A stretch of 33,886 nt of DNA, taken from positions 1 to 33,886 of the forward strand of contig CACZUL010000003.1 in the NCBI GenBank assembly GCA_902784285.1, read 5' to 3'. How positions within the stretch are numbered: position 1 is the first letter of the stretch; each line of letters begins with the position of its first letter. Under the pieces are notes generated by a model. That model had not been told where the DNA came from, ran no database searches, and worked only from the letters and a program-made list of their open reading frames with translations. The DNA is from an uncultured Pseudomonadota bacterium. Lineage in GTDB: Bacteria; Pseudomonadota; Alphaproteobacteria; Rs-D84. Below are positions 20,731-33,886 of the stretch, piece after piece. Made by a program: the position numbers and the translations under genes.

Positions 20731-21141
20731 ATGAATCTGGATTTAATAAAAGCACAAAGCGAGACTATGACTTTGGCATATCGAATCGCACATATTGTTT
20801 ATGCTGAAACGCATGCGCGTTCATTGCGGGTGGTCGAAGCATTAACATCCATGATTTCAAATTATGCCAAAAAAAATAATCGTAATGTTTGTGATGTAAT
20901 ATCTGATGAAACAATATTCGAATCATTAAACAAAAACTCACCGCGGCATCAAGACTTAAAAACTAATTCCAATTCACGTGAATTTCAAATGTGTGTAAGA
21001 GTAGCGATTCGTATGTTGCATGGTAATTTACCAGACTTATGTTACGGGGCAACCATGTTTCATCGTGTTGAATTATTGCCAAATTGGGCGCTGGCACGTG
21101 GATATATCGCCGATATAGATGGATTTTTATTTTATGCATAA
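20731..21141 (+). CDS. Cell wall hydrolase (SleB/Hydrolase_2-like), candidate lysin
   Basis: IAHIVYAE (catalytic Glu motif), GATMFH, PNWA, C-terminal FY. Confidence 0.7.
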   Translation: MNLDLIKAQSETMTLAYRIAHIVYAETHARSLRVVEALTSMISNYAKKNNRNVCDVISDETIFESLNKNSPRHQDLKTNSNSREFQMCVRVAIRMLHGNLPDLCYGATMFHRVELLPNWALARGYIADIDGFLFYA

Positions 21142-21163: not shown

Positions 21164-21352
21164 ATGAGCAAATTTATTAGTGGCGGTTTTTTTGCAAATC
21201 GTAAAACACAAATTATGACTGTGGTTGGAATAATATCAGCAATATGTGCATATCTTGTTGGCGATTCGGATTTATTCGCTATGATTCAGGCGTTGCTTGC
21301 GGTTGGCGGAGTTTACATGTTGCATAAATCAAAACAAAACAAAGGAAAATAA
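21164..21352 (+). CDS. Small two-TM protein, holin candidate
   Basis: Two hydrophobic helices, basic C-terminus, next to the hydrolase. Confidence 0.5.
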   Translation: MSKFISGGFFANRKTQIMTVVGIISAICAYLVGDSDLFAMIQALLAVGGVYMLHKSKQNKGK

Positions 21353-21353
21353 T

Positions 21354-22010
21354 ATGGAAAACATACCAGAAAAATTTCGTAAAGAAGATGGAACGTTGAA
21401 TGCGGATGCGCTTATAAAATCCTATACAGAATTAGAAAAGAAAATTGGAACTATGGTTTCTGTGCCAAATGAAAAATCTGACGAATCGGCTGTGTTGCGC
21501 TTTCGCCGTGCAATTGGCGTTCCAGATGTGCCAGATGAATATCCAAGAAATGATATGTTTGATAATGAAAATGTACGACAAGAATTTCATAAAATTGGTT
21601 TAACAAAAAATCAGGTTGAAAAAATTTATGACATTGCACAAAAATTTTTATCACCGGTTGTGGATGAAATTTTATCTGTTGAACAAGAATCAAATGCGAT
21701 GTCAGAATTAAAAAAATTTTTTGGCGATGATGAAAAAATGCATGATGCATTTATTGCAATTAAATCATTTGGGGAAAGATTTTTACCCGCAGATGCATTT
21801 AATGAATTATGCTCTACACCCCAGGGAATACAAGGTATATATAAGATGATGCAATCCATGGAACCATCGGTTCAAACAGATTCTTCTGATATGAAAATTT
21901 TATCTGATGATGATTTGCGACGTATGATGCGTGATCCAAAATATTGGCGCGATCATGATGCGGAATATGTTCGCAAAATAGAAAACGGATTTAAAAAATT
22001 ATACTCGTGA
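21354..22010 (+). CDS. Capsid assembly scaffolding protein
   Basis: IPEKF...ALIKSYTELEKKIG, GVPDVPDEY, LRRMMRDPKYWRDHD; upstream of the capsid gene. Confidence 0.75.
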   Translation: MENIPEKFRKEDGTLNADALIKSYTELEKKIGTMVSVPNEKSDESAVLRFRRAIGVPDVPDEYPRNDMFDNENVRQEFHKIGLTKNQVEKIYDIAQKFLSPVVDEILSVEQESNAMSELKKFFGDDEKMHDAFIAIKSFGERFLPADAFNELCSTPQGIQGIYKMMQSMEPSVQTDSSDMKILSDDDLRRMMRDPKYWRDHDAEYVRKIENGFKKLYS

Positions 22011-22126: not shown

Positions 22127-22402
22127 ATGGCATTCACATTCTTGAAAACTGCGGCAAAAAAACCTGCTGCTAAAAAACCTGCGGCAAAAAAACCTGCTGC
22201 TAAGAAACCTGCGGCAAAGAAACCTGCTGCTAAAAAAGTTGCTGCTAAAAAGCCAGTTGCTAAGAAAGTAGTTGCAAAGAAACCTGCTGCTAAGAAAGTA
22301 GCGGTTAAAAAAGTTGCTGCTAAGAAACCGGTTGCAAAGAAAACAGTTGCAAAAAAACCGGCTGCTAAGAAAGCATGTGCAAAATGTGCCAAGAAAAAAT
22401 AA
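22127..22402 (+). CDS. Histone H1-like Lys/Ala-rich DNA-binding protein (AKKPA repeats)
   Basis: About 14 pentapeptide AKK(P/V)(A/V) repeats; strong SD; own promoter-like site and terminator. Confidence 0.85.
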
Positions 22403-22421: not shown

Positions 22422-22498
22422 TAAAATGCCCGTTTATCGGGCATTTTTTATTGTTGAAAAATTTCAGTCAGATATTTTTTGTCTGACTGAATTTTTTC
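22422..22498 (+). terminator. Two tandem hairpins upstream of the capsid gene
   Basis: AAAATGCCCG-TTTAT-CGGGCATTTTTT and TTCAGTCAGA-loop-TCTGACTGAA plus T-run. Confidence 0.7.
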
Positions 22499-22627
22499 CT
22501 TGGACAATCCACTATATGGATCCATTTAATTTATTTTTGGCGCCGTACACGGCATAACCATAAATAGATTTTGGGTTGGACGATATGATTCGTCTTGTTT
22601 TTAATCTTAAATAAAAAAGGAATAATA

Positions 22628-23446
22628 ATGTCTGTTTCCATAGATCAAGTATTTGTGAAACAATTTGAAGCGGATGTTCATCTTGCATACCAGCAGATGG
22701 GCACAAAACTGCGTTCTACGATTCGCAGTAAATCTGGTGTTGTTGGGGCAACCACAACATTTCAAAAAATAGGCAAGGGCACAGCCAGTACCAAATCACG
22801 TCATGGCATTGTTCCGGTTATGAATCTAAATCATACGCCGGTTGAATGTACATTACAAGATTACTATGCCGGTGATTGGGTTGATGCCTTGGATGAATTG
22901 AAAATCAATATTGACGAACGCCGTGTGGTTGCATCTGCGGGTGCGTATGCCTTGGGTCGTAAAACCGATGAATTGATTGTTGGGGCTATGAATAATGCAA
23001 CGAATTACGTTGGTGATTATTCAACTGGTCTTACCAAAACGGTGATTTTAAGCGCATTGGAAAAATTAAATGAAAACGATGTGCCAGATGATGGGCGCAG
23101 ATTCGCAGTTGTTGGCGTAAAGCAATGGAACGAATTATTGGGTATAACCGAATTTTCTTCCGCGGATTATGTCGGCGACAATATGCCGTTTATCAATGGT
23201 TGTGAAACACGGAAATGGCTTGGCATTACATGGGTTATGTATAACGATTTGCCACTTGCTTCATCCACACATCGTGATTGCTTTATCTATCACGCATCCA
23301 GTATCGGTCATGCCTGTGGTCAGGAAGTAAAGACTGATATTACATGGCATGGTGAACGCGCTGCGCACTTTATCAGCAACAGCATGTCTCAAGGTGCGGT
23401 TCTGATTGATAATGATGGAATTGTACGTGTTAAATGCGGTGAATAA
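22628..23446 (+). CDS. Major capsid protein (BPP-1-like/Rhodospirillales-type podovirus capsid), 272 aa
   Basis: IDQVFVKQFEADVHLAYQQMGTKLR, DWVDALDELK, AYALGRKTDELI, DVPDDGRR, KWLG. Confidence 0.88.
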   Translation: MSVSIDQVFVKQFEADVHLAYQQMGTKLRSTIRSKSGVVGATTTFQKIGKGTASTKSRHGIVPVMNLNHTPVECTLQDYYAGDWVDALDELKINIDERRVVASAGAYALGRKTDELIVGAMNNATNYVGDYSTGLTKTVILSALEKLNENDVPDDGRRFAVVGVKQWNELLGITEFSSADYVGDNMPFINGCETRKWLGITWVMYNDLPLASSTHRDCFIYHASSIGHACGQEVKTDITWHGERAAHFISNSMSQGAVLIDNDGIVRVKCGE

Positions 23447-23470
23447 AACAAATAGTTCAAGGGGTAAAAA

Positions 23471-23701
23471 ATGGCTTTTCAAAATAAAAATTTATCTGTG
23501 ATTGCGTATGCTAATGGTTTTACATTATGGCATTATGCCGCCAATGAAACATTGGCAACCATCACGGCAAGTGGATACTTCAACGCGGTGAAAACATTGA
23601 TGAACACCGGCGATATGATTTTGATCAATGCATCCGACAAAACATCAATCAAAAAGATTGCTGTGGGTGATAGTGCGGTTACAACCGCAGCATTGGATTA
23701 G
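23471..23701 (+). CDS. Small virion-associated protein (possible capsid decoration protein)
   Basis: LSVIAYANGFTLWHY...SGYFN...GDMIL; directly after the capsid gene; role inferred. Confidence 0.7.
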   Translation: MAFQNKNLSVIAYANGFTLWHYAANETLATITASGYFNAVKTLMNTGDMILINASDKTSIKKIAVGDSAVTTAALD

Positions 23702-23723
23702 TTCCTTGTTTGTTTGTACCAAT

Positions 23724-23752
23724 AAAAGGGGGTATTGTATAACCCCCTTTAC
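23724..23752 (+). terminator. Intrinsic terminator between head and tail genes
   Basis: AAAAGGGG...CCCCTTTT followed by T-rich tract. Confidence 0.6.
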
Positions 23753-23771
23753 TTTTGTTTAGGGGGAAATA

Positions 23772-24290
23772 ATGTTAACTAAAATAGATTTATGCTCTAT
23801 GGCATTGTTAAAACTGGGCGAAAACCCGATTCAATCTTTGTCAGATGATACGGTCGCGGCAAAATTGGGACGCACCTTGATAGACTTTGTCATAGATACA
23901 CTGTTGGCGATGCATCCGTGGAAATTTGCTTGTCGCGAATACACTATATTGAAAGACGAAAATGGAAATTTGAATATTCCATCAGATGTTTTACGCGTTA
24001 TCAAGACCGATGCGCGTATAATTGAAAATAAAATAATATCCGATTCTGATTCAGTGAAAATCATTGCAATTCGGCGCATGTTACCAGATTCGTTTCCAAG
24101 TTATTTTTCATCTGTTGTTTCAACAAAATTAGCTATGGAATTCTGCATACCATTGACATCTGATCAATCTGTGTTCAGAACATTGGTTGCTTTATACGAA
24201 TCAGAATTACAAACTGCAAAATTTATAGACAGTACAACATCGATAAATTCTGCAATAGAGAACTTTTCGTTACTGGATAGCCGCTTTTAA
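23772..24290 (+). CDS. Tail tubular protein A / adaptor (T7 gp11-like)
   Basis: IDLCSMALLKLGENPIQSL, HPWKFA, PSDVLRVI, AKFIDS. Confidence 0.8.
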   Translation: MLTKIDLCSMALLKLGENPIQSLSDDTVAAKLGRTLIDFVIDTLLAMHPWKFACREYTILKDENGNLNIPSDVLRVIKTDARIIENKIISDSDSVKIIAIRRMLPDSFPSYFSSVVSTKLAMEFCIPLTSDQSVFRTLVALYESELQTAKFIDSTTSINSAIENFSLLDSRF

Positions 24291-24301
24291 AAGGATAACT
24301 T

Positions 24302-26008
24302 ATGGGAAATTTTATCAAAACACAAACATCGTTTGCCGATGGTGAAGTTTCATCGGATTTTTTTGCTAACCAGAATTTACACGGGCTTGCGCGACTAGAA
24401 AATATGGATATTATACCTGGGGGCGGTTTGCGTCGAAGACCCGGATTAAAAAAAATTTCTAAATTACCGTCAGGAGCACGACTGATACATTTTTCGGTTT
24501 CTGAAAATGAAACATATGTTTTGGCATTAATGAACGGGATGGCGCGTATGTTTCGCGGAGATTCGTTCGTTCAAGATTTTTTCACACCGTGGTCTTTGAA
24601 TGATTTGGAACTGTTACAATATGCGGAACGTATCGGTACAATGATTTTTGTACATCCAAATCATAAACCAAAGATATTATCACGAAATAATGGTGTGTTC
24701 GGTCTTACGGATTTTGCGTTTAGTTCATCTGATGGCGGTTCCAATATAGATATGCCATTTATGCGGTTTGAAGATTCGGAAAATATAAGTATAACAATTA
24801 CAGCATCAAATAATGTTAATCACCTGAATACAAACCAAGATTTTTGGACCGCCGATAATGTTGGAGGTCATGTATCGCTGGTTGGAAAAACATGGTTAAT
24901 CACATCGTATATTGGGCCACGCGATGTTGTTGCGGTATGTAATGGTATATTTACAAACCCGAATGCCCCAGTGTCAGATTGGCAAGAAGCGGTGTTTAGT
25001 CCACGCCGTGGGTGGCCCATCAGTATCACATTTCATCAAGACAGGTTAGTTTTTGGTGGTTCAAAATCTTGGCCTGGTGGAGTATGGATGTCATGCGTTG
25101 GCGATCATACAAACTTTAATGTTGGGACTGGTTTAGACGACCAGGCAATATATTTCACATTGTTGTCATCTCGTCGTCAACATATATGCACTTTGGTTAG
25201 TTGCGAAAATCTGCAGATTCTTACATCCCAAGGCGAATGGGCGGTTTCAAATAAACCACTTACACCAGAATCAGTGGATATAAAAATGCATACCACAATC
25301 GGGTGTGCCGCCGATAGGTATTTACCACCACAAGAAATGGATGGCGCAACAGTTTTTGTTTCCAATAATAAACAAGATATACGTCAAATGGTCTTGGATG
25401 ATTGGGGACAAAATTATAAAGCAAATAATTTATGCGCGTTGGCAGAACACATGATGCAAACGCCGGTTGATATCGCATATAACAAAACAGATAAAAAACT
25501 TTTTGTTGTTATGTCAAACGGCAATATGGCTGTGTTAAACAGAAATATAGCATTGGGTATTTCAGGGTGGGCACATTACACAACAGACGGTTATTTCCGA
25601 GCAATTACTGTATCAGATAATGATACCTATGTTGTTGTGGAACGTGATTTAGAATTTTTCTTGGAAAAGTTTTCTTATGATGAACTGGTTGATGCCGGGA
25701 ACAAACCTTATACATCATTGGCATATGGAACTCCAATAATGACATCAGGACATAATGCAAAATACATAAGAATTACCAAAATAATTGCTCGTATGAATAA
25801 TTCCAAGACATTATTCATAAATAATATGCGAGCCGTATTTCCGACAGAAATTTATTCTGATGACGCACCGGCCTTTTCGGGCGATATATCTATGAATGTT
25901 TTAGGAACACTAAAAGATATGGTGGATTCACCTTGGGAAATATCTACAAATGATGAATTACCAATGACCGTCTTATCCATAACAATATATGGACGGTACC
26001 AAATATAA
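24302..26008 (+). CDS. Tail tubular protein B / nozzle (T7 gp12-like)
   Basis: QTSFADGEVS, GGLRRRPGL, RGWP.SITFHQDRLVFGGS, NFNVGTGLDDQAI, GWAH. Confidence 0.82.
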   Translation: MGNFIKTQTSFADGEVSSDFFANQNLHGLARLENMDIIPGGGLRRRPGLKKISKLPSGARLIHFSVSENETYVLALMNGMARMFRGDSFVQDFFTPWSLNDLELLQYAERIGTMIFVHPNHKPKILSRNNGVFGLTDFAFSSSDGGSNIDMPFMRFEDSENISITITASNNVNHLNTNQDFWTADNVGGHVSLVGKTWLITSYIGPRDVVAVCNGIFTNPNAPVSDWQEAVFSPRRGWPISITFHQDRLVFGGSKSWPGGVWMSCVGDHTNFNVGTGLDDQAIYFTLLSSRRQHICTLVSCENLQILTSQGEWAVSNKPLTPESVDIKMHTTIGCAADRYLPPQEMDGATVFVSNNKQDIRQMVLDDWGQNYKANNLCALAEHMMQTPVDIAYNKTDKKLFVVMSNGNMAVLNRNIALGISGWAHYTTDGYFRAITVSDNDTYVVVERDLEFFLEKFSYDELVDAGNKPYTSLAYGTPIMTSGHNAKYIRITKIIARMNNSKTLFINNMRAVFPTEIYSDDAPAFSGDISMNVLGTLKDMVDSPWEISTNDELPMTVLSITIYGRYQI

Positions 26009-26026
26009 AAAATAAAAGGATATATA

Positions 26027-26374
26027 ATGGGACAAATTATTTCAGATGTTACAGATGTTTTAAATTATCAAGATGACAAGAAAAAAGCCAAATCTACGCA
26101 AAAGGAAATATTGGCACAAATGTCATCTGATAAAATTGCCAAACAAAATCTGGTTAATAAAGTTTTGGCGACCCAGCGCGCAAAATACGGCGCATCGGGG
26201 ATGAAAAATGGCGGACAAACAGAAGACGCGGTTTTGAAAAGATTAAAAAATGAAACCGAAGAACCATATAAAGAAAAAATGCGAAACAATTTGAATAAAT
26301 TAAAAAATGCACGCGCCAAGAAAAAAAATCTGTTGTTATCAGCATTAGAACACATGGAAAAATTGGTCAAATAG
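26027..26374 (+). CDS. Putative internal virion (ejection) protein
   Basis: LATQRAKYGASG motif; helical; positioned after the tail tube genes. Confidence 0.5.
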   Translation: MGQIISDVTDVLNYQDDKKKAKSTQKEILAQMSSDKIAKQNLVNKVLATQRAKYGASGMKNGGQTEDAVLKRLKNETEEPYKEKMRNNLNKLKNARAKKKNLLLSALEHMEKLVK

Positions 26375-26375
26375 T

Positions 26376-26969
26376 ATGAGTGAATATAACCAGTTCCTGG
26401 ATGCGTGGAATCATCTGCTGGGGCTGAATACGCCATCACATCATCACAGAATGACAGATTTTTTAACGGATGTTTTAAATAATGGAAATCATCGTGGTTT
26501 ACTGATGGCGTTTCGGCATTCAGGAAAATCGACAATTGTTGGAATATTTGCTACATGTGTTCTGTTTTTACGACCCCAAACGCGAATTCTTATTTTATCC
26601 GCCCAAACACACCAAGCGTCCCGGATGGTGATGCATATACGCAACATCCTTGAAAACCATCCATGGTGCCAAGATATGATACCTAAAAATCGTCGTGAAT
26701 GGGCGGAAAATAAAATAACAATAAATCGCCCGATTGGTATACGCGAACCGTCAGTTGTGTGCCAAGGAATATATGGAAATATTACAGGTATGCGGGCGGA
26801 TTTGATAATATGCGATGATGTAGAGGTTCCAAATACATGTAACACTTCACAGAAACGCATCGCGTTGCGCGAAAGATTACGCGAATTGGATTTTGTGCTG
26901 TCGCCTTCGGGAACAATGATTTACATTGGTACCCCGCATACACTAGATACAATATACAGAACAGCCTAG
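26376..26969 (+). CDS. Large terminase, N-terminal ATPase half
   Basis: Walker A AFRHSGKST, ITGMRADLIICDDVE Walker B, coupling motif YIGTPH, then stop. Confidence 0.88.
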   Translation: MSEYNQFLDAWNHLLGLNTPSHHHRMTDFLTDVLNNGNHRGLLMAFRHSGKSTIVGIFATCVLFLRPQTRILILSAQTHQASRMVMHIRNILENHPWCQDMIPKNRREWAENKITINRPIGIREPSVVCQGIYGNITGMRADLIICDDVEVPNTCNTSQKRIALRERLRELDFVLSPSGTMIYIGTPHTLDTIYRTA

Positions 26970-26974
26970 GAATC

Positions 26975-27622
26975 TTATTCTTGGGTCGGCATTGAACTTG
27001 TAATTTTATGCAATTGTTGCAATATTTTTTTGCCGTCATCGCCAAACATTGGTAAATAGGTTTCGTATTCTGGCATCTCGACCTGAAGTTGTGCGCGTAC
27101 GCGATCGTTTATGGGCGCATTTATAATCTCGGTGGCTTGGTCTAAAACACGGTAGGCCTGCTGGGCCCGGACAATCATATCAAATTTTCGTAATTTGTCG
27201 GGTTGGGTATTCAAAGCATGTTTTATGCCGGTAATCCAATCGGAACCGAAAGTTTTGATAATTGGCAAATCCATAAATTTTTCAAGACTTTCCTGATTGG
27301 GTTCAAATTCATCAATTGCCGAAATAAGTGAATCAATTTCATCTTGGGATACATCACCGGCCCCAGTTATACTGTCCATCATACCACCATAGGGTAACAA
27401 TTCACGGGCAATGGAATTCATTGATGTTGTTCCATCGCGCAAGTTCTTGATATGTTGAACCAATAATTTGCCAGTTGGCAAATCAAGTATTTCTTTCAAA
27501 ACTTCGTCTGTGGCCTCGTCAACGAATACACGATTTACCGCCCCCCAACCACCTTCGATAACGTGGGCTTGGCGGTATAAATTTAGAAGTTTTTGTGCGA
27601 TAACGTTTGCTCTGGCTTTCAT
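26975..27622 (-). CDS. Hypothetical protein (215 aa)
   Basis: ORF downstream of the XRE regulator; GGAGG SD. Confidence 0.8.
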   Translation of the reverse strand: MKARANVIAQKLLNLYRQAHVIEGGWGAVNRVFVDEATDEVLKEILDLPTGKLLVQHIKNLRDGTTSMNSIARELLPYGGMMDSITGAGDVSQDEIDSLISAIDEFEPNQESLEKFMDLPIIKTFGSDWITGIKHALNTQPDKLRKFDMIVRAQQAYRVLDQATEIINAPINDRVRAQLQVEMPEYETYLPMFGDDGKKILQQLHKITSSMPTQE

Positions 27623-27649
27623 CTCGTTTCATCCCTCCGTTGGTCGTGT

Positions 27650-28660
27650 TTATTCGGTAATAATCATAATAACCTTATGCATGGTCTTGGCAGAAATTTT
27701 TTCTTCTGGGGATACCATTTGACCATATATTTTGCCCTTGGAATCTTGGCGAACAATTGCGATATTTGCGTTTAAAGTCTGATCTTCACCCAATGATTTA
27801 AAATCGGCATCGATGAAGACCGCCAAATCACCGACAACTGGGGCAGATTTAACATCAGCAAAAACATAAGATTTTTCTGGGATAAATCCACCAAGGCGTT
27901 TGGAATTTGGAACAACGGCATACACACCACGTCTGCCTTCAAGGCTTGCAGGGGCCGGAATCATAGTTGTATCAGATTTCTTGAACGCGATGCCTTTTCC
28001 TTCGGGTTTTCCAAACACAGGAACCAATTTTTTGCGTGCATTATCATACAATTTGGCACCATATAAATGGCCAGACATATCGCCCAAATCGGCCGAAGAA
28101 TCGCCCGGAACCAATACAGCCTTGACCCGTTCTTTTACCTTGTTCATTTGTTTGTTTAATTCTCCAGATTTATATAAATCTGCGATTTTATCAAACATGC
28201 TATCCACAGAGTGAGCGAACGAGCGCGCCAAAGGTTCAATTTCATTTTTATACACTTCGCGTTGGCCGACTTCGATTTTATGATATACCGAAAGTGTCAT
28301 GCCGGCATCTTTTGCCGCCTGGGCAATAGTTTTTCCGGCCTGTTGACGGATTTTGCGCAGACCACTTCCAAATATCTTAAGACCGCTGTCTTCGTTGTCG
28401 TTCATACGGCGTTTAATTTCGTTTTGCCATTTTGTTGCGACTTCGTCTGTATCTTTGATAAATATATCGGACAGTTTGCAACCCAATATGTTACAGATGT
28501 TAAGCAATTGTTTCTGATTCAGCCGGCGAACACCTTTTTCAATTTTTGAAACCGCCGATAAAGACAGATTTGAACGCCGCGCAAGTTCGGTCATCTTCAT
28601 ACCCGCCGCCAGACGAATGTTACGTATATTGTTTGGAAAAATGATTTCTTCTTGGGCCAT
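27650..28660 (-). CDS. Double XRE-HTH transcriptional regulator with degenerate S24-like C-terminal domain
   Basis: Two HTH_3-like units (IRNIR...LSAVSKIEKG; LRKIRQQAG...YHKIEVG); LVPVFG...YAVV...PVVGDLAV. Confidence 0.85.
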   Translation of the reverse strand: MAQEEIIFPNNIRNIRLAAGMKMTELARRSNLSLSAVSKIEKGVRRLNQKQLLNICNILGCKLSDIFIKDTDEVATKWQNEIKRRMNDNEDSGLKIFGSGLRKIRQQAGKTIAQAAKDAGMTLSVYHKIEVGQREVYKNEIEPLARSFAHSVDSMFDKIADLYKSGELNKQMNKVKERVKAVLVPGDSSADLGDMSGHLYGAKLYDNARKKLVPVFGKPEGKGIAFKKSDTTMIPAPASLEGRRGVYAVVPNSKRLGGFIPEKSYVFADVKSAPVVGDLAVFIDADFKSLGEDQTLNANIAIVRQDSKGKIYGQMVSPEEKISAKTMHKVIMIITE

Positions 28661-28682
28661 ATCAAACTCCTTGGGATAAATC

Positions 28683-28719
28683 TTGACAAAATAATAGTCA
28701 AATTTAGAAAACTTGGCAA
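28683..28719 (-). promoter_or_regulatory. XRE gene promoter with overlapping TTGAC-N9-GTCAA palindrome
   Basis: TTGCCA-17-TATTAT on the minus strand; inverted repeat at 28683-28701 covers the -10. Confidence 0.6.
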
Positions 28720-28737
28720 GAAAATAATTTAAAAAAA

Positions 28738-30279
28738 TTATGAATCTAGATCATCTGGAATATCGTCTAAATCAATTGGCGGATTTTCAGCATCTTGCGT
28801 CGGGGCAGAAAAATCTTCGGCGAACTGGACACCGCGGTTTGCCATTTCATTCAGGTTATCAAACAGACTGAATTCTGGCAAAAACGCAACGGTTATAGTG
28901 TCTGTTTTACCGTGGCGGTTTTTACTGATGATAATATCGGCCTTGCCCTTGGCTTTTTCCATTCGGTTTTGCCAAGACCCAACAGACTTTTCGTTTGCCG
29001 TCCCCGAAAGACGGAACGAAGGATCACGATTTGCCAAATAATATTCTTCACGATATGTGAACATAACGATGTCGGCATCTTGTTCAATAGACCCAGATTC
29101 ACGTAAATCAGACAATTGTGGCCGTTTATCATCGCGCATTTCAACACTGCGTGATAATTGCGACAGGGCAATAACCGGTACATTAAATTCTTTGGCCAGC
29201 ATTTTAAGACCGCGTGTTATTTCGGACAGCTCTTGCACACGGTTGTCTTTGTTTTTGCCACCCGGCGATGTAAGTAGCTGTAGATAGTCAATAACAATAA
29301 GGGCGATACCATGATATTTCCGCGCCAAACGCCGAACACGTGTGCGAATCATCGGAACAGACATTCCTGGTGTATCGTCTATGAACAACGGAACCCGACT
29401 TATAGCATCGGAAAACTGAGTCATTTTAAGAAAATCTTCATCGGTCAATGAACCTTCACGCATTGCGCTGGATGGGATTCTGGACTGAGAAGAAAGGACG
29501 CGCGCCGCCAATTCGGATTGCCCCATTTCCAAACTGAAAAATGCAACTGCCCCAGTATATTGTGGATTTGCGCGCCCGGCAAATATTGCATTTGCCGCGT
29601 TAAACGCGATGTTCATGGCCAGGGTTGTTTTACCCATACCTGGACGACCCGCAATAATAAGCAAGTTCGATTTATGCATACCACTTATGGCCTTGTCCAA
29701 ATCGGTAAATCCGGTTGTAAGACCAGAAAGTTTTCCATCCGCCTTGTATGCAATTTCGGCTTCGACAAGGGCGCTTTTTAATGCGTTGGCAATTGGGGTT
29801 ACATCATGTCCCGTGTCGCCGGTTGTCGCCATGTTGAACAGCATTTGTTCGGCATTTTCAATTTGTGTTGATACAGGATTGTCTAAATCTTCGACAAATG
29901 CGGAATCGGTTATAGATTGCCCAATTTGAATTAGTTCACGGCGCATCGCATTTTCGTGAACGATTCGACCATATTGTTCGACATTTACAACCGTTGCGCC
30001 TGCGCCGGCCAGTTGGGTAAGATAGTCGATTCCACCAACTGATTCTAATGTTCCCTGTTGGTCCAGGTAATTTTTAATGGTGATGATGTCGAACGGAATA
30101 CCAGCAGCAAATTGGCGCATTGCCAACTTATAGATTTCTTGGTGTGCGGGATGTGAAAAATCTTCGGGCCTTAAAAATTCAGATATTTTTTCTAATGCCC
30201 GATTGTTCATCAACACCGCGGCCAGAACGGCCTGTTCGGCTTCTATATTAGTTGGTAAAGTTTTGGGAGTAAAGTCCAT
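28738..30279 (-). CDS. dnaB: Replicative DNA helicase
   Basis: EAEQAVLAAVL, GRPGMGKT, FSLEM, IDYLQL, LSQLSR, DLRESGSIEQDAD, KNRHG. Confidence 0.98.
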   Translation of the reverse strand: MDFTPKTLPTNIEAEQAVLAAVLMNNRALEKISEFLRPEDFSHPAHQEIYKLAMRQFAAGIPFDIITIKNYLDQQGTLESVGGIDYLTQLAGAGATVVNVEQYGRIVHENAMRRELIQIGQSITDSAFVEDLDNPVSTQIENAEQMLFNMATTGDTGHDVTPIANALKSALVEAEIAYKADGKLSGLTTGFTDLDKAISGMHKSNLLIIAGRPGMGKTTLAMNIAFNAANAIFAGRANPQYTGAVAFFSLEMGQSELAARVLSSQSRIPSSAMREGSLTDEDFLKMTQFSDAISRVPLFIDDTPGMSVPMIRTRVRRLARKYHGIALIVIDYLQLLTSPGGKNKDNRVQELSEITRGLKMLAKEFNVPVIALSQLSRSVEMRDDKRPQLSDLRESGSIEQDADIVMFTYREEYYLANRDPSFRLSGTANEKSVGSWQNRMEKAKGKADIIISKNRHGKTDTITVAFLPEFSLFDNLNEMANRGVQFAEDFSAPTQDAENPPIDLDDIPDDLDS

Positions 30280-31126
30280 GTCAGATATAGTATATGAAAA
30301 AAAAGTTTTTTCAATTCCTTTTTTATCTGGGTATTCTGAACTGAAAATTCCGATTCTTGATTCAGACGGAAACTCCGCATGGCCGGCGTTTTTTCCGGTT
30401 GAAAAGATTGTGGAAATTCGAAAAACGGTCGGCGAAAGGCACTTTTCGGGTCAAATGATGCTGGAATTCGTGTCGCCAGACAGGGTGCGATTGGACCCCG
30501 GTTTAATCCATTTTTACGAAGACGAATTTGATACTCATACTGCACGAATTGGTGAAAATATGATATCAGGTGGAATAATTTATTGGGACCCATCGGGTGG
30601 GCGCCACCATTCAGATAACAGTGTTTGTGCTTTGATATATCGGGACGATAAAAATCGGCAAATCTTTCTGCACGATATTATGTATATGATTGTTCCCGAT
30701 GAAATAGATTATCCATTGGCATACCAGTGCGACCAAGTAATAAAGTTTGTCCTTCATCACAAAATGCATCAGATTGCCATAGAAACAAATGGCATAGGCG
30801 CGGCATTGCCCGAAATAATGCGTAATATTATAAATCGCAATGGATACCCAATCCAGATAATCAATATAACAAATTCGCGCCGCAAAGAAGATCGTATATT
30901 GGATGCATTGGAACCAATAATGACGACGGGAAGAATGTATGCGAATCGGCGAATCACCCAAACCCCATTTATATCTGAAATGTTATCGTGGACACCGATT
31001 GGTAGTGCCGAACATGACGATGGTCTGGATGCGGTTGCGGGCGCGATTTCTTGCACGCCAGTGCCGATACGGCCATTGGGAAATTCTGTGCCGCGATATA
31101 CGGCAAATACAGATTTTAAAATTTAA
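30278..31126 (+). CDS. Large terminase, C-terminal nuclease half (282 aa)
   Basis: SAWP..F, YWDPS...DNS, IETNGIG, KEDRI, HDDGLDAVAGAI RNase H-like acidic motifs; GGGAG SD before ATG 30278. Confidence 0.85.
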   Translation: MSDIVYEKKVFSIPFLSGYSELKIPILDSDGNSAWPAFFPVEKIVEIRKTVGERHFSGQMMLEFVSPDRVRLDPGLIHFYEDEFDTHTARIGENMISGGIIYWDPSGGRHHSDNSVCALIYRDDKNRQIFLHDIMYMIVPDEIDYPLAYQCDQVIKFVLHHKMHQIAIETNGIGAALPEIMRNIINRNGYPIQIINITNSRRKEDRILDALEPIMTTGRMYANRRITQTPFISEMLSWTPIGSAEHDDGLDAVAGAISCTPVPIRPLGNSVPRYTANTDFKI

Positions 31127-31148
31127 ACGTAAAACAAAAGGAAATAAT

Positions 31149-32375
31149 ATGAAATATGACTTACAACAAATGTACACCCGCGCGATAAATATGCGTGAAC
31201 CATGGATACGTCGTTGGACTGATGCGCGCAGATACACAATGCCAACAACCGATGAAGATTTGGCAACATTGTTTGATGCAACTGCGTCCGATGCCGCAGA
31301 CAATTTGGCGGCATGTATGTATTCATTACTGACCCCGCCGGAATCTTTGTGGTTGAACCTTGTTCGCGAAAGCCCCGATTCGCCAGACCCAGAAATTGCA
31401 ACAGCCGTATTGCGGGCAAATTTAAACGATTCGAATTTTTACACAACCGTTCACCAATGCTATATGGATTTAGTAACATTGGGAACTGCATGTTTATTTA
31501 TGGCGGAATCACCCATTGGTTCGGCCAGTGCGTTTTCTTTCACTGCGATACCAATTTCTGACATTGCAATTTTGCCGAATGCGATATTTCACACAGCAAC
31601 GATTTCCGCATCGGAAATTTTACGCCGTTACCCTGAATGGACACCGCCGCGTGATATAGCAGAAAAAATAAAGCAAGACGGCGAATATCAAATGCGCCTG
31701 GTTCAATCTTTGGTTGATACAGAATTTACGGCATGGGTTGATGTTGGTGGCGATTTAGAAAACAACATAGTTTCGCGCGGAACATTTGAAACGAATCCTT
31801 ATTTAATTTTCCGTTGGTCGGTTGCAAGTGGCGAATTGTACGGTCGTGGTCCGATTCTGCGTGCTTTGCCGGATATAAAAACCGCAAACAAAGTTGTAGA
31901 ATTGGTCTTGAAAAACGCGACCATCGCGGTCAGTGGTATATGGCAGGCCGATGATGACGGTGTTATAAACCTTGGCAATATCAATTTGACACCGGGCGCG
32001 ATAATTCCCAAAGCCGTGGGCAGTTCGGGTCTAACCCCACTTGCATCCGGGGCGAACTTTGATGTGTCGCAATTAATATTAAAAGATTTGCGTGAACGCA
32101 TCCGCCATACATTGTTGGCCGACAGAATCGGATTATTGTCTGAAAAAGAAATGACGGCAACGGAAATATTGGCGCGCAATGCGGATATGTTGCGCATATT
32201 GGGAGCAACATACGGTCGGTTGCTGCATGAATTCATCCGACCATTGTGCGATCGTGGGTTACAGATTTTGGCGCGCCGTGGTGTGATTGAAAAAATATCA
32301 CTGCACGGGGACGCGGAATTGAAATACATTGCACCGATTGCACAAATGGTAGCGGAAAACAACACACTGATTTAG
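31149..32375 (+). CDS. Portal / head-to-tail connector protein (podovirus type), 408 aa
   Basis: LFDATASDAADNLAA, LTPP, SNFY, DLVTLGT, RW...GELYGRGP...ALPDIK, MTATEI. Confidence 0.9.
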   Translation: MKYDLQQMYTRAINMREPWIRRWTDARRYTMPTTDEDLATLFDATASDAADNLAACMYSLLTPPESLWLNLVRESPDSPDPEIATAVLRANLNDSNFYTTVHQCYMDLVTLGTACLFMAESPIGSASAFSFTAIPISDIAILPNAIFHTATISASEILRRYPEWTPPRDIAEKIKQDGEYQMRLVQSLVDTEFTAWVDVGGDLENNIVSRGTFETNPYLIFRWSVASGELYGRGPILRALPDIKTANKVVELVLKNATIAVSGIWQADDDGVINLGNINLTPGAIIPKAVGSSGLTPLASGANFDVSQLILKDLRERIRHTLLADRIGLLSEKEMTATEILARNADMLRILGATYGRLLHEFIRPLCDRGLQILARRGVIEKISLHGDAELKYIAPIAQMVAENNTLI

Positions 32376-32385
32376 CGGGGCAAAA

Positions 32386-32592
32386 ATGGAACGTATAGAG
32401 GTCGCATACGCGCGCACATTTGGCACCGCATCGGGACAAATTGTTTTGGAACACCTGCGCAAGATTACAATAGAACGTGCGTTGGGTCCAAATGCATCTG
32501 AATCAGAACTGCGCAGTATCGAGGCACAACGCGCCATGGTTCATAAAATTGAACAGTTGGTATTACGGGGGCGGGAAAATGCAAAAACATAA
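32386..32592 (+). CDS. Bbp19-like small phage protein
   Basis: YARTFGTASGQIVLEHLR...LRSIEAQRAMV directly after the portal gene. Confidence 0.7.
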   Translation: MERIEVAYARTFGTASGQIVLEHLRKITIERALGPNASESELRSIEAQRAMVHKIEQLVLRGRENAKT

Positions 32593-32836
32593 CGGTTTAT
32601 CAAACATCATTGAAACATTACGCAGTGGTTGGTTTTTAATTGCGTTTATCGCAGGTATGATTTATTGGGTTGCCCGTCAAGATAATGCACTTGTAGAATT
32701 GGACAGATTGACGGTTCGCATGACGACATTGGAAAATCGGACGACAGTATTAGAAACAGGAATAGGGCAGTTGCAATTAAAAATAGACGGTATCAAAGAA
32801 GATGTAACATTGATTAAAACCGCTGTTATAAAGTAA
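32579..32836 (+). CDS. Single-TM coiled-coil protein (possible lysis/holin-like)
   Basis: TM WFLIAFIAGMIYWVA followed by heptad repeats; overlaps the previous gene. Confidence 0.65.
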   Translation: MQKHNGLSNIIETLRSGWFLIAFIAGMIYWVARQDNALVELDRLTVRMTTLENRTTVLETGIGQLQLKIDGIKEDVTLIKTAVIK

Positions 32837-32839
32837 AAC

Positions 32840-32873
32840 AAAATCCCGCACGTTTTGTGCGGGATTATTTTTT
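32840..32873. terminator. Terminator closing the phage-like cluster
   Basis: AATCCCGCAC-GTTTT-GTGCGGGATT plus T-run. Confidence 0.75.
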
Positions 32874-33022
32874 TAACAACCACCGGTTGCGTTACCAATC
32901 CATTTAGAAATAGAAATATCTTTGTGGAACAAGAAATCATATTCGCAATTTCCAGATTTATATGAACCTGTACATGCGGCCAATGTCAGAACGGCAAACA
33001 ATGCCAAGATAACTTTTTTCAT
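32873..33022 (-). CDS. Small lipoprotein (49 aa)
   Basis: MKKVILALFAVLTLAAC lipobox; AAGGAG SD. Confidence 0.75.
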   Translation of the reverse strand: MKKVILALFAVLTLAACTGSYKSGNCEYDFLFHKDISISKWIGNATGGC

Positions 33023-33134
33023 ACTTTCTCCTTTTGTGCTGTTGGTTCGTCCAAGATTATATTTGTATTTTTTCAAAACGCAAAATTAAAAATCGCCAAC
33101 ACCAAAGTTTTGCCGTAATCTTGGTCAATGCGGT

Positions 33135-33476
33135 TTAAAATGCCTGTTTAACCCATGTAATGCGCCATCCGTGGATTATTATTACATCAAACCGTGCATA
33201 GCCCATCCATTTTTTCTGTAACAGGTATGTTTCCGCCGCGGCGCGTAATCGTTTTGTTTGTGTCCATGTAATGGCATTCCAACCCGTCGATATGGTTTTG
33301 CGTTTTTTAACTTCGACAAACACTATCAAATTTCCACGTTTTGCGATAATGTCTATTTCTGCACGGCCAGTGTATCGGCCCGTGGTATATCGGCGCCGAA
33401 CAATTCTGAACCCATGCAACATTAAATATGCGCACGCAACAATTTCCGAAAAAATACCCTTCTGATAAGAATCCAT
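33135..33476 (-). CDS. yraN: YraN/UPF0102 family endonuclease-like protein
   Basis: G...E..A..YL, EIDIIA, VFVEVKKR, RFDVI. Confidence 0.92.
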   Translation of the reverse strand: MDSYQKGIFSEIVACAYLMLHGFRIVRRRYTTGRYTGRAEIDIIAKRGNLIVFVEVKKRKTISTGWNAITWTQTKRLRAAAETYLLQKKWMGYARFDVIIIHGWRITWVKQAF

Positions 33477-33482
33477 TTTAAA

Positions 33483-33884
33483 TTAAAACGCATAAGATTT
33501 TGCCGCAAAATTATCGGTCGCACTTTGAATATTTATCGCACTGTCTTCCGCCTGGCGACCACAGTCAACCAATTCCAGTTCACCATAGTATGCGGTCATC
33601 ATTGGGTCAAACGCATTATCCGAACTGACCCATTTGTCGGTATCTGAATTTGGATTGCCGTATTTATCCAACACATTTTGCCACCATGCCCAGATTTTCT
33701 TGTCGCGTTGATTGGCAAATTTTACGGCATCGCCTTCGACTTCATCAACATCATTTTTATATACGATTTTCCATACGACATTATTGGTCGCGTTACTGGT
33801 AAAATAAACATCGACGGTTTCGCCAGTTACATTTCGGACCAGGTGCAATTCTGCGGCATACATTACCCCACGATTTCGTGCCAA
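33483..33884 (-). CDS. Hypothetical protein, 3' part (runs off the window)
   Basis: Open frame to the window edge; WQNVLDKYGNPN. Confidence 0.7.
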   Translation of the reverse strand: MARNRGVMYAAELHLVRNVTGETVDVYFTSNATNNVVWKIVYKNDVDEVEGDAVKFANQRDKKIWAWWQNVLDKYGNPNSDTDKWVSSDNAFDPMMTAYYGELELVDCGRQAEDSAINIQSATDNFAAKSYAF

Positions 33885-33886
33885 AG

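What the first reader, a model, noticed from the sequence alone, without database searches (positions are those of the whole stretch)
26376..31126. Large terminase split in two by an antisense dnaB-XRE-hypothetical block
Seen: the ATPase half stops just after the coupling motif (GTPHTLDTIYRTA*). The remainder (PFLSGY.ELKIPILD...SAWP..., nuclease WDPS/ETNG/HDDGLDA) resumes 3.3 kb later. Both halves are intact with their catalytic motifs. Known: TerL is normally one polypeptide with ATPase and nuclease domains. Inference: it works either as a two-subunit terminase or is rejoined conditionally. An essential replicative helicase inside a packaging gene is very unusual.
Basis: partly seen in the sequence, partly recalled or inferred. 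Interest (0 to 1): 0.88.

Follow-up and report, generated by a model that had tools for sequence, protein, structure and literature searches.

The report
Two-gene terminase in domesticated phage cluster
The DNA-packaging motor gene of an old phage-derived gene cluster in a small-genome gut bacterium is permanently split into two separately translated genes, kept intact in hundreds of related species, and in this family the cell's own replication helicase gene has come to lie between the two pieces.

Summary
A T7-type large terminase (TerL) is encoded as TerL-N (26376-26969, Walker A/B and motif III) and TerL-C (30278-31126, rest of the ATPase fold plus nuclease). Between them, on the other strand, lie a hypothetical gene, a two-HTH XRE regulator and the genome's only dnaB.

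It is not a recent insertion or a misassembly. The same breakpoint occurs in every family of this order of about 0.9 Mb genomes that I examined. TerN was found in 280 of 301 genomes, and all 150 listed open frames are 198-233 aa. In three families the halves are only 170-550 nt apart yet are still separate genes.

Relatives outside the order carry one unsplit gene of about 480-510 aa, with a short variable linker exactly at the breakpoint. TerL-C has its own ATG and a Shine-Dalgarno-like motif. Both halves are under purifying selection (dN/dS 0.02-0.04 and 0.10-0.15), give congruent trees, and are predicted to dock by beta-strand complementation (ipSAE 0.91, best control 0.00). I found no intron, no room for an intein and no joined contig.

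Best reading: a two-subunit terminase of a domesticated, possibly GTA-like, T7/BPP-1-like structural cluster. Host genes (dnaB here, ftsZ in another family) moved between the two genes later.

The parts
20731..21141 (+). cell-wall hydrolase (SleB/Hydrolase_2-like, endolysin-like); first gene of the phage-derived cluster in this genus
   Evidence: PF07486 E 8.5e-6, 26.8 bits, just under the 27-bit cut-off. phrog_938 endolysin E 5e-9. It travels with the cluster in relatives.
21297..22010 (+). T7-type scaffolding (capsid assembly) protein
   Evidence: PF05396 Phage_T7_Capsid, 50 bits > 27.1. phrog_3742.
22127..22402 (+). histone H1-like lysine/alanine repeat protein (HC2-like) between the scaffold and capsid genes
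   Evidence: PF07382 HC2, 52.9 bits > 40. A similar repeat hit lies in the cluster of family f3 locus L053.
22595..23446 (+). major capsid protein
   Evidence: PF19821 Phage_capsid_2 E 1.8e-73. phrog_3437. 79-85% identical within the genus, 64-72% across the order and 47-63% to free-living Alphaproteobacteria (best segments).
23772..24290 (+). tail tubular protein A (T7 gp11-like)
   Evidence: PF17212 Tube, 22.4 bits > 22.3. phrog_394 E 2.5e-26.
24302..26008 (+). tail tubular protein B (T7 gp12-like)
   Evidence: phrog_376 tail protein E 2e-79. No Pfam hit.
26027..26374 (+). small basic helical protein of uncertain identity; its stop lies one base before the TerL-N ATG
   Evidence: Weak T7_gp14 hit, 18.3 bits < 27. 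No PHROG hit. Junction sequence read.
26376..26969 (+). TerL-N: first part of the T7-type terminase ATPase (Walker A GKS, Walker B DDVE, motif III GTPH); stops (TAG) 9 codons after GTPH
   Evidence: (T7/T3-type TerL chains 8dgc_E and 4bij_A, residues 31-211, E 1e-24). dN/dS 0.022-0.042.
26975..27622 (-). hypothetical 215-aa protein, the conserved downstream partner of the XRE gene across the order
   Evidence: No hit in Pfam, NCBIfam or PHROGs, and no usable Atlas hit. Adjacent to XRE and co-directional with it in 4 of the 5 other families searched. dN/dS 0.09-0.16.
27650..28660 (-). XRE-family regulator with two HTH domains and an unassigned C-terminal half
   Evidence: PF01381 HTH_3, two stretches. 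One copy in each of 5 other families, away from the TerL genes. dN/dS 0.037-0.095.
28738..30279 (-). dnaB, the chromosomal replicative helicase and the only copy found in the genome; its start codon overlaps the TerL-C ATG by two bases (CATG, 30277-30280)
   Evidence: dN/dS 0.043-0.056.
30265..30269 (+). Shine-Dalgarno-like GGGAG 8 nt upstream of the TerL-C ATG, inside the first dnaB codons on the other strand
   Evidence: Sequence read. GGAG or GGGAG lies at the same distance in 8 of the 9 genus loci, and GGAG/AGGAG-like motifs precede the ATG in most other families.
30278..31126 (+). TerL-C: remaining strand(s) and helices of the ATPase fold plus the RNase H-like nuclease (WDPS, ETNG, HDDGLDA)
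   Evidence: AF2 model pLDDT 84; best PDB match is the T7-like TerL chain 8dgc_E, E 1.3e-11, followed by TerL nuclease domains. dN/dS 0.10-0.15.
31149..32375 (+). T7-type portal (head-to-tail connector)
   Evidence: PF12236 E 1.8e-77. phrog_332.
32386..32592 (+). Bbp19-like small phage protein; follows the portal gene in relatives too
   Evidence: PF25181, 41.4 bits > 25. Synteny.
32477..32836 (+). 119-aa ORF that ends the cluster, followed by a strong bidirectional terminator-like hairpin (32842-32866)
   Evidence: Only a weak XhlA hit below cut-off. Conserved in the genus. Hairpin.

Best explanation
The window carries a domesticated, chromosomally fixed cluster of T7/BPP-1-like podovirus structural genes: hydrolase, scaffold, capsid, tail tube A and B, terminase, portal and a Bbp19-like gene.

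In the common ancestor of this order of about 0.9 Mb gut bacteria, the single terL gene underwent fission. The break fell in a short variable linker just after motif III of the ATPase.

Since then TerL has been made as two polypeptides from two genes. TerL-N carries Walker A, Walker B and motif III. TerL-C carries the next core strand, the remaining ATPase helices and the nuclease. TerL-C is translated from its own ATG behind its own ribosome-binding site.

The two proteins are inferred to reassemble without a covalent bond. The TerL-C strand ..ELKIPIL.. is predicted to lie against the TerL-N strand that precedes the P-loop, rebuilding one ATPase fold.

Once the halves were independent genes, nothing held them together. 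In this family dnaB, and later the XRE-hypothetical operon, came to lie between them. In another family ftsZ and the portal gene did.

Shown: the fission, its age, its exact position, purifying selection, co-retention and separate start signals. Inferred: physical reassembly, packaging activity, and that the cluster makes GTA-like particles.
For: (1) Same breakpoint everywhere.
- TerN ends 2-17 residues after GTPH..(D/N/E/H)(T/S)IY in the 25 aligned loci from six families.
- TerC starts with an ATG a few to about 25 residues before (P)FLxG(Y/F)..L.IP in all 25 loci.

(2) Age and spread.
- TerN was found in 280 of 301 genomes of the order (212 of 223 high-quality; 28 of 29 genera).
- All 150 listed matches lie in open frames of 198-233 aa; 151 further matches were not listed.
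- In the genus sample, both halves lie on one contig 3.29-3.37 kb apart in 33 of the 34 genomes that have both.

(3) Unsplit outgroups.
- In a sample of the class, 54 of 58 matches outside the order lie in open frames of 481-937 aa. The other four are 449, 436, 399 and 230 aa. The 4 in-order genomes have frames of 202-211 aa.
- Unsplit relatives of 462-510 aa read GTPH....Y, then a variable linker (about 5-17 aa in the five I read), then FLxxF.
- In all 51 outgroup loci of at least 15 kb, the TerN and TerC hits abut on one strand.

(4) One lineage.
- Both halves map collinearly onto one phage TerL: residues 17-199 and 248-526 of 557.
- They also map onto the same HMMs.
- TerN and TerC trees on the same 39 rows recover the same groups and small clades.

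(5) Selection.
- dN/dS against the 8 closest species is 0.022-0.042 for TerN, 0.10-0.15 for TerC and 0.043-0.051 for dnaB (up to 0.056 with the ninth locus, L042).
- dS is 1-2.5, close to saturation.
- Catalytic residues are invariant.

(6) Co-retention. Of the 61 genomes have both halves, 6 have neither, 2 have only N (one a weak hit) and 2 have only C.

(7) Separate translation. GGGAG lies 8 nt before the TerC ATG here. GGAG/AGGAG-like motifs lie there in most lineages.

(8) Docking.
- ipSAE was 0.91, 0.91 and 0.90; the best of 3 controls was 0.00.
- At least 88% of contacts are shared between runs, and the partner pLDDT is at least 81.
- The mark was reached by 58 of 80 solved complexes and 2 of 110 mismatched pairs.
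- The tightest contacts are TerC 19-26 with TerN 40-47.
- The tool warns that halves of a split gene can pass through likeness to solved single-chain TerL structures, so this shows fold compatibility, not binding.

(9) The insert is host DNA.
- In 5 other families dnaB lies on a different contig from TerL. In 4 of them XRE and the hypothetical gene form an adjacent pair elsewhere.
- Within the family, the content between the halves varies from 1.8 to 15.6 kb and dnaB changes strand.
Against: - No protein-level or transcript-level evidence exists. RNA-library contigs cover most of the region, but they come from polyA libraries of gut samples and may be DNA.
- TerC evolves about four times faster than TerN.
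- One 99% complete genome of family f6 (G041) has TerN next to the portal gene, but no TerC was found even with a profile.
- Two f3 genomes have TerC but no TerN. These are 93-94% complete in about 60 contigs each, so assembly gaps are possible.
- One species (G028) has both halves degraded with stop codons, and G042 has an in-frame TAG in TerN.
- The docking score may reflect the model's memory of single-chain terminases.
- The promoter scan found no more sites than shuffled sequence does (44 against 41.9 expected). How TerL-C is transcribed from inside the dnaB start region is therefore unknown.
- I identified no tail fibre, no T7 gp15/gp16-like core proteins and no clear small terminase in the cluster, so a working particle is not demonstrated.
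Confidence: 0.72

Rival explanations
1. The halves no longer work together. After the fission each took on its own role (for example TerL-C as a stand-alone nuclease, or TerL-N as an ATPase with another partner), and no functional terminase is formed.
For: - TerC is less constrained than TerN: dN/dS 0.10-0.15 against 0.02-0.04.
- G041 keeps TerN beside the portal gene, with no TerC detected.
- G054 and G055 have TerC with no TerN detected.
- The genes are not co-transcribable in this genus, because three antisense genes lie between them.
Against: - Both halves are present in 51 of 61 genomes and both absent in 6.
- TerL-N alone lacks the strand that pairs with the P-loop strand in the predicted fold, and TerL-C supplies it with high model confidence.
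- The ATPase-side residues of TerL-C (W35, G52, F56, Q59, M60, L62, Y80) are invariant across 25 sequences, like the nuclease residues.
- The two trees are congruent.
- Both genes remain linked to the capsid, tube and portal genes.
Confidence: 0.13
2. The halves are rejoined into one TerL. Possible routes are RNA splicing or trans-splicing (group I or II intron), a split intein, or a conditional DNA rearrangement that removes the intervening block.
For: - Intron-split terL genes that are restored by splicing are known in phages. Jug jumbo phages: passages read in PMC12880540. Twort terminase in three coding sequences: one passage in PMC13729910.
- In genus g17 of this family, TerN, dnaB and TerC all lie on the same strand.
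Against: - Permissive (E-value threshold) Rfam scans found no intron. They covered window 20000-33886, five loci with adjacent halves, and L157, L158 and L051.
- Every TerN ends in a stop. Every TerC has its own ATG, most with an SD-like motif.
- The summed length (479 aa) equals that of unsplit relatives (462-510 aa), which leaves no room for intein pieces.
- The only dnaB lies in the block, so excising it would remove an essential gene.
- No contig in 2 RNA and 2 DNA runs joins 26969 to 30278. Contigs can miss rare forms.
Confidence: 0.06
3. The cluster is a decaying prophage remnant, and the two ORFs are pseudogene fragments that happen to be still open.
For: - The cluster lacks replication, integration and tail-fibre genes as far as I could see.
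- Single species show decay: G028 has stops in both halves, and G042 has a TAG in TerN.
Against: - Frames are open in 150 of 150 listed matches across 28 of 29 genera.
- TerN dN/dS (0.02-0.04) is as low as that of dnaB.
- Catalytic residues are invariant.
- The capsid is 79-85% identical within the genus, at least as conserved as dnaB at 69-82%.
Confidence: 0.04
4. The arrangement is an assembly artefact of a metagenome bin.
For: The genome is a draft of 81 contigs.
Against: - The stretch is held by 20 runs of 10 studies.
- One contig of run X2 spans it whole. The tool notes that a near-identical run may be the source.
- Contigs from three other runs cross one or other junction.
- The same layout is seen in 17 of 17 fetched genus loci, and the same spacing in 33 of 34 genus genomes.
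Confidence: 0.01

Closest known systems
T7-type large terminase (T7/T3 gp19, PhiV-1 TerL; NCBIfam NF033889, phrog_38)
   Same: The same ATPase motifs and RNase H-like nuclease in the same order. TerL-N aligns to chains 8dgc_E and 4bij_A, residues 31-211. The TerL-C model's best PDB match is 8dgc_E. It sits beside T7-type portal, scaffold and tail-tube genes.
   Different: It is two polypeptides, not one. The cut lies inside the ATPase fold, after motif III, and not at the ATPase/nuclease domain boundary. About 48 residues of the phage protein between the two aligned parts have no counterpart. Identity to any of the 50,697 phage records is at most about 36% for the N half and 28% for the C half in the rows listed.
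Unsplit TerL of the same chromosomal cluster in free-living Alphaproteobacteria (record titles: Magnetospirillum, Caenispirillum, Terasakiella, Telmatospirillum, Skermanella, Micavibrio, Asaia and others)
   Same: Orthologous. TerN is 41-49% and TerC 31-38% identical to one gene there. The neighbours are the same: portal, Bbp19-like, scaffold, capsid, tube A, tube B, TerL, hydrolase. At least 590 genome stretches encode a relative.
   Different: There it is a single ORF of about 480-510 aa with a short linker where the break lies here. The gene order differs (portal first), and no host genes lie inside the cluster in the loci I looked at.
Intron-interrupted terL of phages (Jug jumbo phages, PMC12880540; Twort, PMC13729910)
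   Same: terL is present as two or three separate coding pieces.
   Different: There the pieces lie on one strand, are co-transcribed and are rejoined by group I intron splicing (passages read). Here no intron was detected. Each piece has its own stop or start, and antisense essential host genes lie between them.
Herpesvirus terminase gene UL15 (two exons with UL16 and UL17 antisense in the intron). Recalled, not checked by any search.
   Same: A terminase ATPase gene in two pieces a few kb apart, with unrelated genes on the opposite strand between them.
   Different: UL15 is rejoined by the host's mRNA splicing. A bacterium has no such machinery, and no self-splicing intron was found here.
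Gene transfer agents (RcGTA-type; reduced head-only clusters in endosymbionts, abstract of PMC9254644)
   Same: Phage structural genes fixed in the chromosome, inherited with the host, under purifying selection and retained in very small genomes. The Telmatospirillum relative has a GTA-type holin (PF11351) next to the cluster's hydrolase.
   Different: RcGTA is HK97/siphovirus-like (recalled), whereas this cluster is T7/BPP-1-like podoviral. DNA packaging and transfer are untested. No paper linking a T7-like cluster to GTAs turned up.

Membership tests
T7-type large terminase (NF033889 / phrog_38 / Terminase_6N + Terminase-T7_RNaseH-like) | ASCE ATPase with Walker A, Walker B and motif III (coupling motif) | tested here: met
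   G50-K51-S52, D147-D148-x-E150 and G185-T186-P187-H188 are invariant in 25 sequences. NF033889 scores 228.7 bits > 150 for TerL-N.
T7-type large terminase (NF033889 / phrog_38 / Terminase_6N + Terminase-T7_RNaseH-like) | C-terminal RNase H-like nuclease with three acidic catalytic residues | tested here: met
   W103-D104-P105, E169-x-N171-G172 and D247-D248..D251 are invariant in 25 sequences. PF22530 scores 40.4 bits > 27. The fold matches TerL nuclease domains. As a whole protein, TerL-C scores 118.9 bits on NF033889, below the 150 cut-off.
T7-type large terminase (NF033889 / phrog_38 / Terminase_6N + Terminase-T7_RNaseH-like) | ATPase and nuclease on one polypeptide | tested here: not met
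   A TAG stop at 26967-26969 and a new ATG at 30278. Frames are separate in all 25 in-order loci and in all 150 listed matches.
T7-type large terminase (NF033889 / phrog_38 / Terminase_6N + Terminase-T7_RNaseH-like) | Packages DNA into procapsids through the portal | not testable with these tools
   Only the gene context is available: portal, scaffold, capsid and tube genes flank the two genes.
Gene transfer agent | Phage-like structural genes fixed in the chromosome and inherited vertically under purifying selection | tested here: met
   Present in 28 of 29 genera of the order. Flanking host genes are conserved in the genus. Divergence of TerN parallels that of dnaB. dN/dS is well below 1. 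The family groups in the TerN and TerC trees follow the genome taxonomy.
Gene transfer agent | No replication or integration module of its own; the cluster is too small or incomplete to propagate as a virus | tested here: inconclusive
   The cluster genes scanned include no polymerase, integrase or tail-fibre hit. I read the neighbouring ORFs of the window as host genes by eye only. The rest of the genome was not searched for such genes.
Gene transfer agent | Particles package random host DNA and deliver it to other cells | not testable with these tools
   Needs particle purification, or sequencing of the virus-like-particle fraction.
Intron-split terL (group I intron, as in Jug phages and Twort) | A self-splicing intron between co-transcribed fragments | tested here: not met
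   No intron family was found at E <= 1 in window 20000-33886, nor at E <= 0.1 in eight related loci. Three genes on the opposite strand lie between the fragments. Rfam can only find described intron families.
Split-intein protein | N- and C-intein pieces appended at the break | tested here: not met
   TerL-N ends 2-17 residues after the last conserved TerL block, and TerL-C begins a few to about 25 residues before the next one. The lengths sum to that of unsplit relatives.
Chromosomal replicative helicase DnaB | DnaB N- and C-terminal domains above the equivalog cut-off; single copy | tested here: met
   PF00772 and PF03796 both hit. NF006606 scores 601 bits > 540; phage_DnaB TIGR03600 scores 407 < 499. 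One match in the own genome.

The most novel reading that the evidence does not exclude
The cluster is the reduced form of a previously unrecognised, podovirus-derived (T7/BPP-1-like) family of gene-transfer-agent-like particles. The family is inherited vertically in many Alphaproteobacteria: TerN matched 60 of 401 sampled genomes of the class, and at least 590 genome stretches encode the unsplit TerL.

In this order of tiny gut genomes it runs on a natural two-piece packaging ATPase whose catalytic core is assembled from two polypeptides. Its genes have become interleaved with essential host genes (dnaB, ftsZ). This fixes the element in the chromosome and may tie its expression to replication or division.
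Probability: 0.35. Interest if true: 0.85.

Novelty: new variant of a known kind. Interest (0 to 1): 0.7.

Why it matters
Large terminases are among the strongest molecular motors known and are treated as single-chain enzymes. Here the ATPase core itself is cut after motif III, and the split has been conserved across hundreds of species. That makes it a ready-made system for asking how the ATPase fold, the inter-subunit contacts and the nuclease are coupled.

It also shows that a gene which looks 'interrupted by an essential host gene' can be the late result of an old gene fission.

Beyond the finding itself, the work uncovered a T7/BPP-1-like structural cluster that is strongly conserved in an order of bacteria with genomes under 1.1 Mb and widespread in free-living Alphaproteobacteria. 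My searches found no paper describing it. If it makes particles, it would be a new GTA-like family in lineages where (as I recall) the classical RcGTA is not described.

Tried and rejected
- **Introns.** Permissive (E-value threshold) Rfam scans of window 20000-33886, of five loci with adjacent halves and of three more loci gave only sub-threshold chance hits and tRNAs.
- **Translational read-through or bypass.** The 170-550 nt gaps in families f2, f4 and f5 are in other frames with many stops, so I rejected this.
- **Split intein.** Rejected by length accounting.
- **Mobile-element origin of the dnaB-XRE-hypothetical block.** Rejected because the genes are core genes found elsewhere in the genome in other families, and dnaB is the chromosomal type.
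- **Promoters.** The sigma-70 scan gave 44 sites against 41.9 expected, so no promoter claim is made.
- **Expression.** Two polyA RNA-library runs hold 73% of the sampled words. They are contigs and may contain DNA, so they prove neither transcription nor its absence. Parts of the stretch without RNA contigs in X19 and X20 mean nothing.
- **hyp215.** No family hit and no usable Atlas hit.
- **PDB by sequence for TerL-C.** Only chance hits; the fold search was needed instead.
- **Literature.** Searches found no paper on a protein-level split TerL or on a T7-like GTA. One search returned nothing at all. PMC12306168 describes the reduced gut order Rs-D84 / Ca. Enterousia and has no occurrence of phage, capsid, terminase or gene transfer in its main text. 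That the window belongs to that taxon is my guess from genome size and habitat; no call shows it. Supplements of papers were not consulted.
- **TerL-C tree.** The careful search did not finish, so the quick tree was used.

Full report
**What is there**

- TerL-N is at 26376-26969 (+, 197 aa).
- Three genes follow on the minus strand: a hypothetical gene (26975-27622), a two-HTH XRE regulator (27650-28660) and dnaB (28738-30279).
- TerL-C lies on the plus strand, with its conserved ATG at 30278 and its stop at 31126.
- A T7-type portal gene follows (31149-32375).

Upstream lie a cell-wall hydrolase, a T7-type scaffold protein, a histone H1-like repeat protein, the capsid, tail tube A and B, and a small basic protein.

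TerL-N ends in TAG nine codons after GTPH. The stop of the convergent hypothetical gene lies five bases further on. The TerL-C ATG and the dnaB start codon overlap as CATG, and a GGGAG motif lies 8 nt before the TerL-C ATG.

**Both pieces are one terminase**

- TerL-N matches T7/T3-type TerL chains 8dgc_E and 4bij_A over residues 31-211 (E 1e-24).
- TerL-C has no PDB match by sequence. Its AlphaFold model (pLDDT 84) matches 8dgc_E best (E 1.3e-11), followed by many TerL nuclease domains.
- The halves occupy consecutive parts of NF033889 (positions 2-190 and 334-500 of 500) and of phrog_38 (274-460 and 478-707 of 760).
- They align to residues 17-199 and 248-526 of one 557-aa phage TerL.
- No phage among 50,697 records is close. 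Listed identities reach at most about 36% for the N half and 28% for the C half.

**The split is old and conserved**

In 60 relatives plus the own genome, each half was found in 53 of 61 genomes. Both occur in 51, neither in 6, only N in 2 (one a weak hit) and only C in 2.

In 33 of the 34 genus genomes with both halves, they lie on one contig 3.29-3.37 kb apart. In G018 they are on two contigs.

Across a sample of the order, TerN is present in 280 of 301 genomes (212 of 223 high-quality; 28 of 29 genera). All 150 listed matches sit in open frames of 198-233 aa; 151 further matches were not listed.

I fetched 25 loci from six families and mapped the window's proteins on them.
- The nine genus loci have the window's layout.
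- The ten loci of family f3 have TerN, then 1.8-7 kb, then portal and TerC.
- The five loci of families f5, f2 and f4 have TerN and TerC side by side.
- The f6 locus has TerN followed by portal, with no TerC.

In the side-by-side loci the two are still separate frames, 170-550 nt apart.

TerN stops 2-17 residues after GTPH..(D/N/E/H)(T/S)IY in the 25 aligned loci. TerC starts at an ATG shortly before (P)FLxG(Y/F)..L.IP in all 25 loci, mostly behind a GGAG/AGGAG-like motif.

**Unsplit relatives define the breakpoint**

A search of 1.84 billion representatives with TerL-N found many proteins of 460-515 aa that are 45-51% identical to it. In the five I read, the sequence runs GTPH....Y, then a variable linker (about 5-17 aa), then FLxxF. 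The fission therefore removed only a linker.

A scan of species genomes found at least 590 stretches encoding such a TerL. Record titles are mostly Rhodospirillales and other Alphaproteobacteria. In all 51 loci of at least 15 kb, the TerN and TerC hits abut on one strand. Where enough flank was held, the order is portal, Bbp19-like, scaffold, capsid, tube A, tube B, TerL, hydrolase.

In one locus (Telmatospirillum) the hydrolase is followed by a GTA-type holin (PF11351) and then by host genes.

In a sample of the class, 60 of 401 genomes have a TerN match at E <= 1e-20.
- The four in-order genomes have frames of 202-211 aa.
- Of the 58 matches outside the order, 54 lie in frames of 481-937 aa. 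The other four are 449, 436, 399 and 230 aa.

In the trees, the 11 unsplit outgroup rows form one side of a well-supported branch. The split rows form the other side, so a single origin of the split is not contradicted.

**Selection and shared history**

Against the eight closest species, Nei-Gojobori dN/dS is:
- 0.022-0.042 for TerL-N
- 0.10-0.15 for TerL-C
- 0.043-0.051 for dnaB
- 0.037-0.095 for XRE
- 0.09-0.16 for the hypothetical gene, where it could be computed

dS is 1-2.5, so the ratios are rough.

The Walker A, Walker B and motif III residues, the three nuclease motifs and several ATPase-side residues of TerL-C are invariant.

The TerN tree (careful search) and the TerC tree (quick search, because the careful one did not finish) on the same 39 rows recover the same family groups and small clades.

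**How the two proteins may work**

The complex prediction gave ipSAE 0.91, 0.91 and 0.90, against 0.00 for the best of three controls. At least 88% of contacts are shared between runs, and the partner pLDDT is at least 81. The mark was reached by 58 of 80 solved complexes and 2 of 110 mismatched pairs.

The tightest contacts pair TerL-C residues 19-26 (SELKIPIL) with TerL-N residues 40-47 (GLLMAFRH), the strand just before the P-loop. From general knowledge of ASCE ATPases (recalled), the strand after motif III lies next to the P-loop strand. The cut would therefore fall between two neighbouring core strands, and TerL-C would complete the sheet.

The tool warns that split genes pass through likeness to solved single chains. 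The result shows that the halves are still compatible with one fold; it does not show that they bind.

**The block between the halves**

dnaB is the only DnaB_C match in the genome and is of the chromosomal type.

In five other families dnaB lies on a different contig from the TerL genes. In four of them XRE and the hypothetical gene form an adjacent, co-directional pair on a third contig.

Within the family, all five other genera examined have dnaB between the halves, but the layout varies:
- g17: TerN, dnaB and TerC all on one strand, with nothing else between.
- g16: dnaB co-directional with the halves, XRE-hypothetical antisense.
- g15: as in the window.
- g13 and g14: 9.2 and 15.6 kb between the halves, with further ORFs.

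In family f3 an ORF that I read as ftsZ by eye, and in L051 a tRNA gene, lie between TerN and portal-TerC.

The 'insert' is therefore host DNA that settled between two independent genes. It is not the cause of the split.

**Assembly and rejoining**

The stretch 26000-31500 is held by 20 runs of 10 studies, by their records from animal guts.

A 21,580-nt contig of run X2 covers it whole with 10 differences. The tool notes that such a run may be the source of this DNA. Contigs of X3, X19 and X20 cross one or other junction. No contig joins the two halves directly. Contigs cannot exclude rare joined RNAs.

**Against my reading**

- There is no direct evidence of expression or assembly.
- TerL-C evolves faster than TerL-N.
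- G041 (99% complete) has TerN but no TerC, even with a profile search.
- G054 and G055 have TerC but no TerN.
- G028 has both halves degraded, and G042 has a TAG in TerN.
- Promoter-like sites are no more frequent than in shuffled sequence.
- I identified no tail fibre, no T7 gp15/16-like proteins and no clear small terminase.

**Known and new**

The split terL genes that my searches found in print are intron-interrupted and are repaired by RNA splicing. These are the Jug phages (passages read in PMC12880540) and Twort (one passage in PMC13729910).

Herpesvirus UL15, with antisense genes in its intron, is a recalled analogue. GTA head clusters retained in reduced endosymbiont genomes are described for RcGTA-type genes (abstract of PMC9254644).

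I found no paper on a protein-level fission of TerL or on a T7-like GTA-type cluster. I rate the finding a new variant of a known kind. The bolder reading, a new podovirus-derived GTA-like family with a two-piece motor, remains open.

Noticed in passing
window 20731-32836; loci L069-L148: The whole T7/BPP-1-like structural cluster (portal, Bbp19-like, scaffold, capsid, tube A, tube B, TerL, hydrolase) recurs as one copy in many free-living Alphaproteobacteria. At least 590 genome stretches encode the TerL, and 60 of 401 genomes in the class sample match TerN. The capsid is 47-63% identical to the window's (best segments). In Telmatospirillum a GTA-type holin (PF11351) follows the hydrolase. 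No paper on this was found.
   Followed up: partly
window 22127-22402 (+); L053 758-1060: A 91-aa lysine/alanine repeat protein (HC2 histone H1-like, 52.9 bits) sits between the scaffold and capsid genes, followed by a bidirectional terminator-like hairpin at 22423-22447. A similar repeat lies in the cluster of a family f3 genome. A DNA-condensing protein inside a capsid gene cluster is unusual.
   Followed up: no
window 30277-30280: The divergent dnaB and TerL-C start codons overlap by two bases (CATG). The ribosome-binding region of each gene, and presumably its promoter, therefore lies inside the other gene's first codons. The overlap is kept in 7 of the 9 genus loci and in L159, judged from the tblastn coordinates.
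   Followed up: partly
L051 5374-6957; L053 10220-11974: In family f3 an ORF that I read as ftsZ by eye (GGAGCNAV motif), and in L051 a tRNA gene, lie between TerL-N and portal-TerL-C. A second essential host gene is thus interleaved with the cluster.
   Followed up: no
window 26975-28660 (-); G044:C17, G039:C6, G041:C52, G051:C19: The two-HTH XRE regulator and the 215-aa hypothetical protein form a gene pair conserved across the order. It lies beside TerL-N, in convergent orientation, in 5 of the 6 genera of the window's family that I examined. Whether it regulates the cluster is unknown. The hypothetical protein has no detectable family.
   Followed up: partly
G041:C64 (L066); G028:C1; G042 (L064); G488; P0028: Exceptions and possible parallels. 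G041 has TerL-N but no detectable TerL-C. G028 has both halves degraded. G042 has an in-frame TAG in TerL-N. One out-of-order genome (G488, 230-aa frame) and one 210-aa representative (P0028, which ends 10 aa after the ..TIY of motif III) may be independent fissions or truncations.
   Followed up: no
window 2241-3201: Two long ORFs of about 297 aa overlap almost completely on opposite strands: 2241-3137 (-) and 2311-3201 (+). Both are rich in Ala, Gly and Thr. At most one is likely to be real.
   Followed up: no
window 32842-32866: A strong bidirectional terminator-like hairpin (11 pairs, 6 G-C) closes the cluster. After it come a small DUF4223 lipoprotein gene and a gene that I read as YraN-like by eye, both on the other strand.
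   Followed up: no
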